Shown here one piece after another: positions 15,301-17,988 of a DNA stretch of 34,201 bases; position 1 is the first letter of the stretch, and every line of letters starts with the position of its first letter. The stretch is taken from contig CAZLLR010000001.1 in the NCBI GenBank assembly GCA_964560655.1, forward strand, positions 1-34,201. Direction: 5' to 3'. Source of the stretch: an uncultured Candidatus Saccharibacteria bacterium. Lineage in GTDB: Bacteria > Patescibacteriota > Minisyncoccia > GCA-002772825. Both the position numbers and the translations under genes were made by a program. Under the pieces are notes generated by a model. The model did not search any database. It was not told the DNA's origin and worked only from the letters and a program-made list of their open reading frames with translations.

Positions 15301-16632
15301 ATGTCTGATTATCTTGTCGATGGAGGTAAGCTTCTTAAGGGCTCTATAGTAGTGAATCCGTCTAAGAACGGTGCGGTAGCTGTGCTTGTAGCCTCACTTT
15401 TAAATAAGAAGAAAACTATAATAGAAAACCTCCCAAAGATTGAGGAGGTATTTAGGATAATAGAAGTTCTAAAGAGCGTTGGAGTTGAAGTTAATTGGCT
15501 GGATAAGAAGCACTCAAAGTATGGTGGGCATATTGTTGAGATTATACCTCCTAAGAAAATAAAGATAGGCAACATAGACAAGAAGGCGGCTAGCATGACG
15601 CGAAGTATCATACTTTTTGCTGGCGCTTTGGCGAACCAGTTTACTAAATTTTCTCTACCTGCTTCAGGTGGATGCAAACTTGGCAAGAGGTCAATAATGC
15701 CTCATATTTATACATTGGAAGAATTTGGTGTTAAGACTAAAGTCTCTTCTACAGGATACTTTTTCAGTAGCAATAAAGTTTCTCCTGTTTCTAGTCTAGT
15801 TCTTTATGAAGCGGGTGATACTGTCACAGAGAATGCTATTATGGCGGCAGCTTTAATTTCAGGAAAAACGGTTATTAAATTTGCCTCAGCGAATTATCAG
15901 GTGCAGGATCTTTGTTTCTTTTTAAAAAAGTTGGGTGTGAAGATAAAAGGCATAGGCACAAGTACTCTTACTGTTTACGGTAAGAAAAAGATAAATAAAG
16001 AAGTCTCTTATGCCTTGTCTGAAGACCCTATTGAGGCGATGTTGTTTCTCTCTATCGCTATTACGACAAACTCCTCTATAACGATAGAAAGGTGTCCGAT
16101 AGACTTTCTTGAGCTTGAGCTCTTGAAGCTTAAGAAAATGGGATTTAAATTTAAAATCTTGAAGAAGTATAAGGCGAGGAATGGCTATACTCGTCTTGTT
16201 GATATAAAGACCTTCTCTTCCAAACTTAAAGCTCCAGAGGAGAAGATCTCGGCGATGCCGTACCCAGGTATCAACATAGACAACTTGCCGTTTTTTGCTG
16301 TTATAGCATCAAAATCAAAAGGAGAAACTTTGGTCCATGACTGGGCATATGAGAATAGGGCTGTATATCTCTTAGAACTTAACAGACTAGGAGCGAAAGT
16401 TACTTTAGCAGATCCTCACCGTGTATTTATAGGAGGACCTTCTGTTCTTACTGCTGCAGATATAGTATGTCCACCGGCACTTCGTCCTTCGACCATTATC
16501 CTTGCTGCCATGCTTGGGGCAAAGGGCAAGTCGTTGCTTTCAAATATCTACTCTATAGAGAGAGGGCATGAAGACCTCTGTGGCAGGCTTTTAAAGATTG
16601 GCGCAAAGATTAGGAAAATAGAAGATGATTAA
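15301..16632 (+). CDS. murA: UDP-N-acetylglucosamine 1-carboxyvinyltransferase
   Basis: SKN, GGCKLGKR (active-site Cys retained), TENAIMAA, PYPG, ENR, IERG. Confidence 0.92.
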   Translation: MSDYLVDGGKLLKGSIVVNPSKNGAVAVLVASLLNKKKTIIENLPKIEEVFRIIEVLKSVGVEVNWLDKKHSKYGGHIVEIIPPKKIKIGNIDKKAASMTRSIILFAGALANQFTKFSLPASGGCKLGKRSIMPHIYTLEEFGVKTKVSSTGYFFSSNKVSPVSSLVLYEAGDTVTENAIMAAALISGKTVIKFASANYQVQDLCFFLKKLGVKIKGIGTSTLTVYGKKKINKEVSYALSEDPIEAMLFLSIAITTNSSITIERCPIDFLELELLKLKKMGFKFKILKKYKARNGYTRLVDIKTFSSKLKAPEEKISAMPYPGINIDNLPFFAVIASKSKGETLVHDWAYENRAVYLLELNRLGAKVTLADPHRVFIGGPSVLTAADIVCPPALRPSTIILAAMLGAKGKSLLSNIYSIERGHEDLCGRLLKIGAKIRKIEDD

Positions 16633-16641
16633 AGTAAACTA

Positions 16642-16671
16642 AACGGCTAACATCTTTTTATGTTAGCCGTT
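16642..16671. terminator. Hairpin after murA
   Basis: Perfect 12-bp stem AACGGCTAACAT/ATGTTAGCCGTT; weak downstream T tract. Confidence 0.65.
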
Positions 16672-16713
16672 GAAGTTTTGCAAAAGGAGGGATCCTAGCG
16701 TTATAATAAGAAT

Positions 16714-16830
16714 ATGAATCCCGTTAGAGATCAAAAACTTAATAATAATACAGAAGTAAAATTTATTAACAATGATAATAAGATAGACTTTAAGGAAAAA
16801 TTCCTAAGGAGTCTATCTCTAACGGGATGA
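16714..16830 (+). CDS. 38-aa upstream ORF spanning the MITE-like element (MNPVRDQKLNNNTEVKFINNDNKIDFKEKFLRSLSLTG)
   Basis: Open from ATG 16714 (6 nt after TATAAT 16702-16707) to TGA 16828-16830, which overlaps the pcm ATG (ATGA). Confidence 0.5.
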   Translation: MNPVRDQKLNNNTEVKFINNDNKIDFKEKFLRSLSLTG

Positions 16831-16831
16831 A
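16714..16831. mobile_element. MITE-like element inserted at the pcm start codon
   Basis: Perfect 14-bp inverted repeats ATCCCGTTAGAGAT (16718-16731) and ATCTCTAACGGGAT (16815-16828); direct repeat ATGAA at 16714-16718 and 16827-16831; AT-rich interior. Confidence 0.7.
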
Positions 16832-17477
16832 AAGACTTATTGAAGACATGATAAGCGAAGGTTTCCTAAAGACACCGAAGATAATCGACGCTTTTAGATT
16901 TATCGATAGGGCAGATTTTGTGCCTGAAGAATTAAAGTTTGAGGCTTATGTAAATGCGCCACTGCCTATTGGCTTTGGGCAGACTATTTCTCAGCCTTCT
17001 ACTGTGGCTTTCATGTTTGAACTATTAGACCCAAAACCGGGAGATAATATCTTAGACATAGGCGCTGGCTCGGGATGGCAGACAGCGCTACTTGCTTTTA
17101 TCGTAAGTCATGACAATAAGGGCGAAGAACTTCCGCCTGAGAAAAAAGGAAAGATAATTTCTATAGAGCTTATACCCGAGCTTGAAGTTATGGCAAGAAA
17201 AAATATCTCTAAATATAATTTTATAAAAAAAGGTGTAGTCGATATCCATTGTCTTAACGCGACAAAAGGCTTCCCCTCAGAAGCTCCATATCAGAAGATA
17301 ATCAGCGCCGCATCAGCAGACGAGATACCAAAAGATTGGCAAAATCAACTAAGCTCGGGTGGGTCAATTGTTGCTCCGATAGGCTTAAGTCTTTGGCAGT
17401 ATAATAAGAAAATGGACGACACTTTTCTAAGGAAGGAGTTCCCTGGGTTTGCTTTTGTGCCGTTTGTCAAAGAATAA
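16827..17477 (+). CDS. pcm: Protein-L-isoaspartate O-methyltransferase
   Basis: RADFVP, AYVNAPLPIGFGQTISQP, LDIGAGSGWQTALLA, C-terminal FAFVP. Confidence 0.95.
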   Translation: MKRLIEDMISEGFLKTPKIIDAFRFIDRADFVPEELKFEAYVNAPLPIGFGQTISQPSTVAFMFELLDPKPGDNILDIGAGSGWQTALLAFIVSHDNKGEELPPEKKGKIISIELIPELEVMARKNISKYNFIKKGVVDIHCLNATKGFPSEAPYQKIISAASADEIPKDWQNQLSSGGSIVAPIGLSLWQYNKKMDDTFLRKEFPGFAFVPFVKE

Positions 17478-17988
17478 GCGAAAAAAATATTATCAAAAGT
17501 ATTATTGCTATTTGAATAGGTATTCCCTTGGTAGGCTCACCCATAAATATGTTTTTCTTGTGGAAGAACATATGGATTTTATGAAAGAAGGCGATAGGCT
17601 GTTTTTTAAAAAATATATTTATCAACTCTATAAGATCCGGCATGATAGATGCTGGTACGATGATAACCAAAGCGAATATCTTATCATTTATACTAAGCGA
17701 ACTTAAGCTTATGAGGACAGTGGATATAACCAGGCCCAATAGACCATCTAAGGTCATATGAATAAGGTCTTTTTTCAGTTTATCTTTCTTTATGCACCCA
17801 AGTTTTTCTTCTTGGTGGCAAGTCTTTATAGAATGAAGCTTATAATCCCAATGGGGGATTAAATCCAGTAGATAATGACTACAAAAAGCTACTATGAATA
17901 CGACTAGAGCATTTAGGGGGGTTATTGGTCTTATGGCAAAAGGTAGAGCGACGGCTGTAGCTGTAATTATGTGGGAAGAAAGTATCAT
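17467..17988 (-). CDS. Membrane-bound metal-dependent hydrolase-like protein (YdjM-related)
   Basis: N-terminal His, SHYLLDLIPHWD, PDL and HKIHMFFH motifs among several TM helices. Confidence 0.65.
   Translation of the reverse strand: MILSSHIITATAVALPFAIRPITPLNALVVFIVAFCSHYLLDLIPHWDYKLHSIKTCHQEEKLGCIKKDKLKKDLIHMTLDGLLGLVISTVLISLSSLSINDKIFALVIIVPASIMPDLIELINIFFKKQPIAFFHKIHMFFHKKNIFMGEPTKGIPIQIAIILLIIFFSLIL

What the first reader, a model, noticed from the sequence alone, without database searches (positions are those of the whole stretch)
16702..16831. MITE-like element inserted on a start codon that preserves expression by translational coupling
Seen: 14-bp perfect inverted repeats are flanked by a duplicated ATGAA. 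Removing the insert and one ATGAA restores TATAAT-6 nt-ATG AAA AGA, a plausible leaderless pcm start. With the insert, the first ATG opens a stop-free 38-aa ORF (MNPVRD...SLSLTG) whose TGA overlaps the pcm ATG (ATGA). Inference: the element end (...CTAACGGG + ATGA) makes insertion at start codons nearly harmless, which suggests a non-autonomous element family adapted to gene starts in a compact genome.
Basis: partly seen in the sequence, partly recalled or inferred. Interest (0 to 1): 0.78.

Follow-up and report, generated by a model that had tools for sequence, protein, structure and literature searches.

The report
Hairpin transposon relic on start codon
A 109-base remnant of a tiny mobile DNA element, whose intact relatives carry only a small GIY-YIG nuclease gene, sits exactly on the start codon of a protein-repair gene in an ultra-small bacterium, and the element family seems built to land on gene starts without breaking them.

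Summary
It includes the 14-bp perfect inverted repeat, the duplicated ATGAA, and a 38-aa ORF whose TGA overlaps the pcm ATG. Three same-genus genomes have the same murA-pcm locus without the insert, with TATAAT 6-9 nt before the ATG. This proves a precise insertion on the start codon.

The insert is one of 16 copies in this 652-kb genome. One 280-bp copy (contig C21) encodes an intact 95-aa GIY-YIG nuclease, and its first and last codons are the inverted repeats. The window copy is an internal-deletion derivative of that gene.

The family-wide anatomy is a 13-bp terminal repeat plus a 4-bp target duplication (mostly TGAA). The host's A plus the duplicated TG becomes the element's start codon. 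The element's last base (A, G or T) plus TG rebuilds the host start. The right-hand TGA is the element's stop.

The closest known system is the Ssn nuclease/hairpin-repeat family (Chenal 2025). That paper does not report start-codon targeting, target duplication or empty sites.

This scan found the same family earlier in other genomes.

The parts
16642..16671 (+). Hairpin after murA (12-bp stem), a terminator-like boundary of the upstream gene. It is not part of the element.
   Evidence: (I3).
16678..16707 (+). Promoter-like site TTGCAA-18-TATAAT. Its -10 box ends 6 nt before the first ATG, which would give a leaderless transcript.
   Evidence: The same TATAAT-6..9 nt-ATG arrangement is seen at the empty pcm sites of G001-G003.
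16714..16716 (+). The original pcm start codon, now the start of the 38-aa relic ORF. It is made of the host A plus the TG of the left target duplication.
16715..16718 (+). Left copy of the 4-bp target-site duplication, TGAA.
   Evidence: TSD identical in 75 of 82 start-type elements. Empty sites.
16719..16827 (+). Non-autonomous element (109 bp, subfamily A), an internal-deletion derivative of the 280-bp GIY-YIG element.
   Evidence: It is 94% identical to the copy on contig C8.
16719..16731 (+). Left 13-bp terminal inverted repeat, TCCCGTTAGAGAT. It lies in codons 2-6 (NPVRD) of the relic ORF.
16815..16827 (+). Right 13-bp terminal inverted repeat, ATCTCTAACGGGA. Its last base is the A of the pcm ATG.
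16714..16830 (+). 38-aa ORF (MNPVRD...SLSLTG), a remnant of the nuclease reading frame. Its stop TGA overlaps the pcm ATG.
16805..16810 (+). AAGGAG inside the element, about 15 nt before the pcm ATG. It is conserved in all 4 subfamily-A copies and is paired in the predicted RNA fold.
16828..16831 (+). Right copy of the target duplication, TGAA. Its TGA is the relic ORF's stop.
16827..17477 (+). pcm (protein-L-isoaspartate O-methyltransferase), the host gene. It is intact.
   Evidence: Orthologues are 75-81% identical.

Best explanation
Window 16719-16827 is a non-autonomous, internally deleted copy of a very small hairpin-ended mobile element. The full form of that element (277-280 bp) consists of one 93-95-aa single-domain GIY-YIG nuclease gene.

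What is shown: the element has 13-bp terminal inverted repeats that are also the first and last codons of the nuclease ORF. It is flanked by a 4-bp target duplication, here TGAA. It entered the pcm start, A|TGAA, after this lineage split from its congeners.

The geometry makes three codons. The host A plus the duplicated TG gives the element ORF its start codon. The right-hand duplicate gives it its TGA stop. The element's last base plus TG rebuilds the host start codon, so pcm stays whole.

What is inferred: the nuclease works like the Ssn ssDNA nucleases. It would recognise the hairpin that the two ends form in single-stranded DNA and cut a few bases 5' of it. This would mobilise both full and short copies, in one orientation.

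Also inferred: pcm is still translated because ribosomes that start on the old, probably leaderless, AUG read through the left arm. This opens the stem that hides the new AUG. In this copy they terminate on the overlapping UGA and restart.
For: Insertion is shown.
- pcm orthologues in 3 of 3 same-genus genomes have murA, a hairpin, TATAAT, 6-9 nt and ATG with no insert.
- Exact empty sites also exist in G002 for the C21 and C9 copies.

The family is shown.
- The genome holds 16 copies with both ends plus 1 remnant.
- 15 of the 16 copies abut the first codon of an ORF of 103-520 aa. These include murG, gatB, scpB and pcm, and their Pfam profiles begin at residues 2-6.

The autonomous form is shown.
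- The C21 copy encodes P0001, which matches Pfam GIY-YIG at E 4e-17.
- The predicted model has a GIY-YIG fold (pLDDT 86.9). The residues encoded by the terminal repeat are disordered.
- The window copy aligns to the full form at both ends and in two inner blocks.

Anatomy.
- Positions 1 and 11-13 of the repeat vary, yet stay complementary in 76-80 of 82 elements. Complementarity stops at position 14.
- The TSD is identical in 75 of 82 elements. Variants include TGAG, TGGA, TGAT, TAAA and TTGA.
- End pairs T..A, C..G and A..T give host starts ATG, GTG and TTG.
- None of the 117 end-motif hits has the G that would give CTG.

Orientation.
- 24 of 25 internally similar pairs lie the same way round relative to the host gene.

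Start-codon excess.
- At least 12 of 14 copies are on starts. A model that tolerates every non-genic ATGAA expects 35% (P 1.6e-4).

Link to the nuclease.
- A close homologue (E <= 1e-30) is present in 7 of 21 relatives that have the end motif, against 1 of 39 without it (Fisher P 0.002).
- Y1 transposase genes show no association: 10 of 21 against 18 of 39.
- In 80 loci chosen by protein similarity alone, 55 have both repeat cores with at most 1 mismatch.

Structure.
- The element folds strongly as ssDNA on both strands (z -5.5 and -5.7) and as RNA (z -5.7). In the RNA fold the A and U of the pcm AUG lie inside the stem.

Ssn precedent.
- Ssn proteins are single-domain GIY-YIG proteins of about 94 aa that bind a hairpin in ssDNA and cut upstream of it. 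The ssnA gene is flanked by such repeats (PMC11893778, sections read).
Against: - No biochemistry or expression data exist for this family.
- GIY-YIG enzymes hydrolyse DNA, and no strand-transfer activity is known for them. The joining step is therefore unexplained.
- 14 of 21 relatives with the end motif lack a close nuclease homologue.
- The published Ssn-related motif (SRM) does not match these ends and is not enriched in this genome: 1 match, against 0-2 in shuffles.
- Membership of the Ssn clade (CDD cd10448) could not be tested.
- The near-invariance of repeat positions 2-10 is partly built into my search pattern.
- The start-codon excess rests on crude gene calls, and selection could contribute to it.
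- Other subfamilies of the same element lie between genes with a TTGA duplication: 9 of 27 in G050. Start codons are therefore a preference of the T..A/TGAA lineage, not of the whole family.
- The coupling part holds for only 6 of 55 short copies.
- Mismatches in the stem show no bias to G-U on the sense strand (12 against 8). This gives no sign of selection on the RNA hairpin.
Confidence: 0.75

Rival explanations
1. It is an ordinary MITE moved in trans by a conventional transposase encoded elsewhere, either a Y1/HUH transposase of the IS200 or REP-associated type or a DDE enzyme. On this reading the GIY-YIG gene is only cargo or a neighbour.
For: The genome has three Y1_Tnp (PF01797) genes of 215-259 aa. 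Y1 enzymes act on DNA hairpins and insert in one orientation. 14 of 21 genomes with the end motif lack a close GIY-YIG homologue.
Against: - Y1 genes show no association with the end motif: 10 of 21 against 18 of 39, P 1.0. Seven relatives with 3-12 end-motif hits have no Y1 match.
- The one Y1 gene flanked by repeats (on contig C9) has a different hairpin, TGTTAGACAT..ATGTCTAACA, on both sides.
- No rve or DDE_Tnp_1 match was found in the genome.
- The nuclease ORF is bounded exactly by the repeats, which are its own first and last codons, in 55 of 80 loci chosen by protein similarity across several phyla.
- IS200/IS605 elements, as I recall them, make no target duplication. These elements do.
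Confidence: 0.08
2. The nuclease is a free-standing homing-type endonuclease. It cuts gene starts, and the copies spread by break repair or gene conversion rather than by excision and integration. The short copies would be decayed homing genes.
For: GIY-YIG is a classical homing-endonuclease fold. Weak matches were found to the group I intron endonuclease family (TIGR01453, E 1.4e-6, below its cut-off) and to I-TevI. Insertion is precise, with overlapping start and stop codons. The start of the class-V aminotransferase gene is occupied by different elements in G000 and in G001/G003.
Against: - At least 16 unrelated target genes in one genome share only about 5 bases.
- A 4-bp duplication flanks the copies, which homing does not produce.
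- Short non-coding subfamilies with the same inner sequence occur at different genes. This means they were copied as short units.
- The protein has no DNA-binding domain beyond the roughly 85-residue catalytic core.
Confidence: 0.1
3. The hairpin plus short ORF is a host regulatory leader, a structured 5' region with a leader peptide that controls translation. It would be kept for the host's benefit and would no longer be a mobile element.
For: The predicted RNA structure is strong and hides the AUG (z -5.7). The upstream ORF always spans the left arm. All copies lie at 5' ends of genes. Some subfamilies supply an SD-like AAGGAG, a -10-like box or an in-frame ATG.
Against: - Congeners express the same genes without it.
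- The host genes are functionally unrelated.
- The inner sequences decay, with stops at varied places.
- Stem mismatches show no G-U bias on the sense strand.
- There is no Rfam match.
- One copy still encodes an intact nuclease.
Confidence: 0.05

Closest known systems
Ssn site-specific ssDNA nucleases with NTS/SRM hairpin repeats (SsnA of Neisseria meningitidis; Chenal et al. 2025, PMC11893778). I read sections 5 (parts 1-2), 10, 12 and 17, and ran term searches in the text and supplements.
   Same: Both have a single-domain GIY-YIG protein of about 94 aa. In both, the gene is bracketed by hairpin-forming inverted sequence that also occurs in many gene-less copies. The authors note the IS-like NTS-ssnA-NTS layout. 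The tyrosines and glutamate they mutated (Y6, Y17, E64) have counterparts at similar spacing in P0001 counted from Met10. That correspondence is my own count and was not aligned to SsnA.
   Different: - Here the two arms of one inverted repeat enclose the gene and are part of its coding sequence. Ssn genes have a separate short hairpin on each side.
- The SRM search motif does not match.
- Here there are target duplications, empty sites and start-codon insertion. The paper's text mentions none of these and no Patescibacteria: 0 occurrences of 'start codon', 'MITE' or 'Patescibacteria' in the text, and 0 of the taxon names in the supplements held.
- cd10448 membership was not testable.
Bacterial MITEs such as Correia elements of Neisseria (recalled; no paper read)
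   Same: Short, non-coding, with terminal inverted repeats and a target duplication. Many copies. Able to carry promoter-like or start-like sequences that affect neighbouring genes.
   Different: The putative parent encodes a GIY-YIG nuclease and no known transposase. Insertion is exactly on start codons in one orientation. The element end supplies the first base of the host start codon.
IS200/IS605 elements and REP/RAYT systems (as discussed in PMC11893778 section 12; details recalled)
   Same: Both recognise hairpins in single-stranded DNA, show strand- or orientation-specific behaviour, use short specific target words, and have very small elements with many non-autonomous hairpin copies.
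   Different: The enzyme there is a Y1 HUH transposase that forms a covalent intermediate, and IS200/IS605 makes no target duplication. Here the enzyme is GIY-YIG and a 4-bp duplication is present. Y1 genes in these genomes do not co-occur with the element.
Rickettsia palindromic elements (recalled). Chenal et al. list Rickettsia among SRM-rich genomes (section 12).
   Same: Palindromic selfish repeats in a reduced genome. They survive inside or at the edge of coding sequence by being translated.
   Different: As I recall, RPEs sit in frame within genes and add peptide segments. These elements sit on the start codon, out of frame with the host gene.
Free-standing GIY-YIG homing endonuclease genes of T4-like phages (Seg proteins; recalled; PMC2988022 seen only in a search listing)
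   Same: A GIY-YIG gene inserted between genes with little disturbance of neighbours.
   Different: Those proteins carry DNA-binding domains, have one cognate site each, make no target duplication and have no short derivative copies.

Membership tests
Ssn nuclease / SRM repeat systems | Single-domain GIY-YIG protein of about 94 aa | tested here: met
   P0001 has 95 aa and matches PF01541 at E 4e-17 over residues 10-77. The model shows one compact domain, with best fold matches to Slx1 and UPF0213 GIY-YIG domains.
Ssn nuclease / SRM repeat systems | Protein belongs to the CDD cd10448 clade | not testable with these tools
   No CDD library or verified SsnA sequence was available. The closest solved sequence is UPF0213 BH0048 (E 0.0011).
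Ssn nuclease / SRM repeat systems | Gene flanked on both sides by SRM hairpin repeats (the published degenerate motif), with SRM enriched in the genome | tested here: not met
   The SRM pattern from the paper's Methods gives 1 match in the genome, against 0-2 in 5 shuffles. There is no match at the C21 gene or at the window element. The gene is instead enclosed by the two arms of one 13-bp inverted repeat.
Ssn nuclease / SRM repeat systems | Cuts only single-stranded DNA, a few bases 5' of the bound hairpin | not testable with these tools
   This needs the purified protein. The 4-bp offset of the duplication from the stem foot is compatible with it but is not a test.
MITE (non-autonomous inverted-repeat element) | Terminal inverted repeats, target-site duplication, small size and no intact gene | tested here: met
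   13-bp repeats, a TGAA duplication, 109 bp, and a relic ORF only.
MITE (non-autonomous inverted-repeat element) | Multiple copies and orthologous empty sites | tested here: met
   16 copies in the genome. Empty sites at three loci.
MITE (non-autonomous inverted-repeat element) | Parent element with the same ends that encodes a transposase | tested here: inconclusive
   A parent with the same ends exists (C21; also 55 of 80 loci elsewhere). Its only gene is a GIY-YIG nuclease, for which no transposase activity is known.
IS200/IS605 | Encodes a Y1 HUH transposase, with no terminal inverted repeats and no target duplication | tested here: not met
   The element encodes a GIY-YIG protein and has terminal repeats and a 4-bp duplication. 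Y1 genes do not co-occur with it.
Free-standing GIY-YIG homing endonuclease | Catalytic domain joined to a DNA-binding domain, with one long cognate target site | tested here: not met
   The protein has 95 aa with only the catalytic core. At least 16 unrelated target genes share only about 5 bases.

The most novel reading that the evidence does not exclude
The 277-280-bp form is a complete autonomous DNA transposon, smaller than any insertion sequence I know of. Its only protein would be an 86-95-aa GIY-YIG single-strand nuclease acting as the transposase. It has no start or stop codon of its own and takes both from the 4-bp duplication it makes at A|TGA-type gene starts, giving the host gene back a start codon with its last base. 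If so, it would be a new mechanistic class of transposon that is specialised to parasitise start codons, and so the host's promoter and translation start, in streamlined genomes.
Probability: 0.4. Interest if true: 0.88.

Novelty: new variant of a known kind. Interest (0 to 1): 0.74.

Why it matters
If the reading holds, a nuclease of under 100 residues and 13-bp ends are enough for a mobile element. The element can occupy the start codons of essential genes (murG, gatB, scpB) in genomes of about 0.65 Mb without killing the host.

This would give the newly described Ssn nucleases a direct role in DNA mobility, which their discoverers only suggested. It would add a transposition route that uses neither DDE, HUH, serine nor tyrosine chemistry.

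It also matters for annotation. In candidate-phyla-radiation genomes these inserts create false short ORFs, shifted start codons (ATG to GTG or TTG) and N-terminal extensions.

The family offers natural pairs of small ssDNA nuclease and hairpin site. It also offers a natural test bed for how leaderless, Shine-Dalgarno-poor bacteria choose start codons.

Tried and rejected
- RNA evidence: the look-up of sequencing runs listed 3 DNA runs of one study and no RNA holder. Expression could therefore not be examined.
- Population polymorphism: laying the contigs of those 3 runs on window 15800-17800 gave no joint that skips the element. It showed only contig breaks and other copies of the repeat at its ends. 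This says nothing either way.
- Rfam: no family matched window 16500-17000 at E <= 1.
- Chance of the 12-mer alone: not significant with 2 mismatches allowed. I dropped it as an argument.
- Extra promoter requirement at targets: a -10 box of at least 5 of 6 matches lies near the ATG at 9 of 14 insertion sites, against 81 of 157 element-free ATGAA starts. There is no clear enrichment, so I rejected the idea that the element targets leaderless promoters as such. Copies in other phyla also sit on starts preceded by Shine-Dalgarno-like sequence.
- Stop-codon targeting by the TTGA subfamily: only 1 of 9 G050 copies follows a long ORF. Rejected.
- RNA-level selection on the stem: there is no G-U bias.
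- TGA as a sense codon: rejected. ORFs are long under table 11, and TGA ends 48 of 574 crude genes.
- DDE transposases: rve and DDE_Tnp_1 were not found in the genome.
- Literature: six full-text searches found no description of GIY-YIG or hairpin elements at start codons or in Patescibacteria. bioRxiv supplements are closed, and subscription journals are not in the library.

Full report
**The observation**

Window 16714-16831 reads ATGA-ATCCCGTTAGAGAT...ATCTCTAACGGGAT-GAAA.
- The two 14-bp arms (16718-16731 and 16815-16828) are perfectly complementary.
- ATGAA stands on both sides.
- The first ATG opens a 38-aa ORF (16714-16830). Its TGA overlaps the ATG at 16827 of a 216-aa ORF.
- That ORF is protein-L-isoaspartate O-methyltransferase, with the Pfam PCMT profile starting at residue 2.
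- A TTGCAA-18-TATAAT promoter-like site ends 6 nt before the first ATG.
- Taken alone, a 12-mer pair with 2 mismatches allowed is not above chance. The case rests on what follows.

**It is an insertion**

The pcm orthologues of the three same-genus genomes (75-81% identical) keep the same neighbourhood. That neighbourhood is the murA end, a hairpin, then TATAAT followed 6-9 nt later by the pcm ATG. None of the three has an insert.

Removing 16719-16831 from the window gives TATAAT-AAGAAT-ATGAAAAGACTTATTGAA. This matches the arrangement in the congeners.

Two further copies have exact empty sites in G002 with nearly identical flanks. One is the full-length copy on contig C21 and the other is the copy on C9.

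At the C9 host gene (a class-V aminotransferase), G001 and G003 carry a different, degenerate member of the family at the same start codon. So that site has been used more than once.

**The family in this genome**

A search with the element found 5 places. A scan for the end motif found 14 pairs of ends. A blastn search with all copies added two more pairs and one right-end remnant.

By inner sequence there are at least six kinds:
- A, 109 bp, 4 copies including the window. The window copy is 94% identical to the copy on C8.
- B, 79 bp, 7 copies.
- C, 2 copies.
- D, 1 copy.
- E, 1 copy.
- One 280-bp copy on C21.

In the first 14 copies, the codon formed at the right end opens an ORF of 103-520 aa. 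It is ATG in 11, GTG in 1 and ATA in 2. The two later copies abut ATG-initiated ORFs of 360 and 174 aa.

Ten of the 14 host proteins have Pfam families: PCMT, MurG, GatB, a radical-SAM enzyme, a class-V aminotransferase, DUF1573, RNase H, PAP2, ATP synthase epsilon, a polysaccharide flippase-like protein and ScpB. The profiles start within the first few residues, so these are true N-termini.

The one clear exception is the C17 copy. It has a TAAA duplication and lies 11 nt before the atpC ATG.

**The parent**

The C21 copy encodes a 95-aa ORF (P0001).
- It matches the Pfam GIY-YIG domain at E 4e-17.
- Its AlphaFold model is confident (mean pLDDT 86.9). Residues 1-6 are disordered and the last six are weaker.
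- The best fold matches are the GIY-YIG domains of Slx1 (TM 0.62-0.63) and UPF0213. The best sequence match in the PDB is UPF0213 BH0048, E 0.0011.
- The protein has more than 4,700 relatives of similar length. Most of the closest have 95 aa with a conserved MNPVRD start and RFLSLTG end. These are the residues encoded by the inverted repeats.
- The window's 38-aa ORF aligns with the full gene at its first roughly 75 nt, at a block matching the RFKEH codons, and at its last roughly 30 nt. It is a deletion derivative, and its open frame is a relic.

**Anatomy across genomes**

I examined four sets:
- (a) this genome, unbiased;
- (b) 652 kb of G050, tiled and scanned for both ends, unbiased with respect to flanks;
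- (c) 80 stretches from relatives, chosen by the left-end motif and therefore biased for the left flank;
- (d) 80 loci chosen only by similarity to the protein, mostly Patescibacteria MAGs but also MAGs labelled Omnitrophota, Nitrospiraceae, Planctomycetota and others.

Results:
- Complementarity of the arms holds for 13 positions (76-82 of 82 elements) and falls to chance at positions 14-15.
- Positions 1, 11, 12 and 13 were not part of my search pattern. They vary and yet stay complementary in 76-80 of 82 elements.
- The four bases outside each end are identical in 75 of 82 start-type elements. They vary together: TGAA, TGAG, TGGA, TGAT; elsewhere TAAA, TTGA, CAGG, TAAG. That is the signature of a 4-bp target duplication.
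- With this register, the host start codon is the element's last base plus TG. End pairs T..A, C..G and A..T give ATG, GTG and TTG.
- Among the 117 end-motif hits, the first element base is T in most, C in 22, A in 5 and G in none.
- Elements with G..C ends do exist (5 of 55 in set d). In the two I read, they lie between the pheS stop and a pheT gene that has its own ATG.
- In set (d), 55 of 80 loci have both 9-nt repeat cores with at most one mismatch, although the proteins are only 50-80% identical. This points to constraint on the DNA itself. In the other sets, the invariance of positions 2-10 is partly imposed by my pattern.

**Start-codon preference**

- This genome: 15 of 16 copies.
- G050: 27 elements. 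12 lie on ATG or GTG starts and 3 more are shifted by one base. 9 short C..G-ended copies with a TTGA duplication lie between genes, and only 1 of these 9 follows a long ORF.
- Set (d): 25 of 55 sit on a start with the canonical register. Many of the rest still abut a host ATG on the right.

Start codons are therefore the habit of the T..A/TGAA lineage and not of every subfamily.

With crude gene calls (574 ORFs), the genome has 2,121 non-element ATGAA words. Of these, 149 are at called starts and 273 are outside genes. If every insertion inside a gene were lost, 35% of survivors would be expected at starts. Observing at least 12 of 14 has P 1.6e-4. The model is rough, and selection may add to targeting.

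Insertion sites do not differ clearly from other ATGAA starts in having a nearby -10 box (9 of 14 against 81 of 157).

**Orientation**

Short copies were oriented by their host gene. Among them, 24 of 25 pairs with clear inner similarity lie the same way round. These pairs fall into 8 clusters with at most one flipped member. Because the ends are symmetrical, this asymmetry suggests either a strand-specific mechanism or strong selection.

**Which enzyme**

- A close homologue of the nuclease (E <= 1e-30) is found in 7 of the 21 relatives that have the end motif and in 1 of the 39 that do not (Fisher P 0.002). Related genomes are not independent.
- The genome also has three Y1 (IS200 or REP-associated type) transposase homologues. 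One is flanked by a different hairpin.
- Y1 genes are present in 10 of 21 relatives with the motif and 18 of 39 without it. Several element-rich genomes have none.
- No rve or DDE_Tnp_1 match was found.

The nuclease is therefore the best candidate for the mobilising enzyme. This is an inference.

**How it most likely works**

Shown:
- the insertion;
- the 13-bp ends and the 4-bp duplication;
- the borrowed start and stop codons;
- the rebuilt host start;
- one intact nuclease copy and many deleted copies.

Inferred from the Ssn precedent: SsnA is a 94-aa single-domain GIY-YIG enzyme. It binds a hairpin in single-stranded DNA and cuts a few bases upstream of it, and it does not act on duplex DNA or RNA. 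The authors remark that NTS-ssnA-NTS looks like an insertion sequence (PMC11893778).

The window element folds into the expected hairpin as ssDNA on both strands (z -5.5 and -5.7). A cut 4 nt 5' of the stem foot would fall at A^TGAA, the edge of the duplication. How the cut DNA is joined to a new site is unknown.

**Host expression**

In RNA the same stem forms (-38.1 kcal/mol, z -5.7). It contains the A and U of the pcm AUG, and an inner stem covers the AAGGAG.

Over all sets, an open frame ending in ATGA is found in 19 of 27 full-length copies but in only 6 of 55 short ones. The lengths of short copies show no modulo-3 rule outside this genome.

Other subfamilies offer other aids:
- a CATAAT-like box 10 nt before the ATG (4 of 5 B copies);
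- an in-frame ATG 8-9 codons upstream inside the element (C and E; in the C7 copy the junction codon is ATA, so this inner ATG is probably the start).

A feature common to all start-type copies is that the upstream ORF spans the whole left arm. Ribosomes starting at the old AUG would therefore open the stem. This is my proposal and is untested.

The genome is poor in Shine-Dalgarno-like sequences (45 of 574) and rich in -10 boxes just before starts (151 of 574). This fits leaderless translation.

**Comparison with what is known**

The system works like, and is probably related to, the Ssn/hairpin-repeat systems. It fails one defining test: the published SRM motif does not match and is not enriched. 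The clade test (cd10448) could not be run.

It meets the structural definition of a MITE family, with a parent element of an unusual kind. It is not an IS200/IS605 element and not a classical homing endonuclease gene.

Six full-text searches found no report of such elements at start codons or in Patescibacteria. The Ssn paper and its held supplements do not mention them.

Earlier reports of this scan describe the same family in other genomes and pointed me to the Ssn paper. I reached the GIY-YIG reading before seeing them and re-tested their main claims here.

**Verdict**

Two corrections apply: the translational-coupling mechanism is not general, and the duplication is 4 bp, not 5. The element is a new variant of a recently described kind, and its mode of mobility is open and potentially new.

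Noticed in passing
G000 contig C7:17745-18130 (locus L226), outside the window: A second, divergent GIY-YIG gene (38% identical to P0001) lies between a partial duplicate of the 5' part of tRNA-Val(TAC) and the intact tRNA-Val gene. It looks as if its insertion duplicated part of the tRNA.
   Followed up: partly
G000 contigs C9:6771-7483, C2:1431-1661 and C20:10715-10951, outside the window: Three Y1 (IS200 or REP-associated type) transposase homologues of 215-259 aa. The one on C9 is flanked by a 23-nt palindrome (TGTTAGACAT...ATGTCTAACA) that occurs only 4 times in the genome. A similar hairpin lies between murA and pcm in G001.
   Followed up: partly
Whole genome G000: Only 45 of 574 crude genes have a Shine-Dalgarno-like 4-mer upstream, while 151 have a TATAAT-like box (at least 5 of 6) 4-10 nt before the start. 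The organism seems to rely largely on leaderless or SD-independent initiation. ATGA stop/start overlaps occur at 12 gene pairs.
   Followed up: partly
L210 (G001) and L212 (G003), upstream of the class-V aminotransferase gene: The same start codon that carries a subfamily-A element in G000 and is empty in G002 carries a different, degenerate element of the family in G001 and G003. The site has been used repeatedly or the element replaced.
   Followed up: partly
G050 contigs (tiles L169-L206), e.g. C12:43568-43683 and C13:6112-6166: A short subfamily (56-65 bp) with C..G ends, GC-rich inner hairpins and a TTGA duplication lies between genes, once as two adjacent copies. It shares the repeat core but not the start-codon habit.
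   Followed up: partly
L128, L129, L134, L136, L138 (Kaiserbacteria-type MAGs): Full-length elements with G..C ends sit at the same place, between the pheS stop codon and the pheT start, in five genomes. The left duplication is no longer recognisable. This is probably an old, vertically inherited insertion.
   Followed up: partly
G000 C7:8881-8960, C25:3041-3121 and C6:10098-10176: In subfamilies C and E an ATG inside the element is in frame with the host gene 8-9 codons upstream. In the C7 copy the junction codon is ATA, so the host protein (a radical-SAM enzyme) probably now starts inside the element with a 9-residue extension.
   Followed up: partly
L061, L064, L067 (G042): An 80-bp C..G-ended element with a TAAA duplication is nested inside a longer T..A-ended element. 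The composite recurs at three loci with the same inner flanks, so a nested element has itself been copied.
   Followed up: no
G000 C5:18895-18990: A right-end-only remnant of the element lies 16 nt before the ATG of a 391-aa ORF, next to a terminator-like GC-rich hairpin.
   Followed up: no
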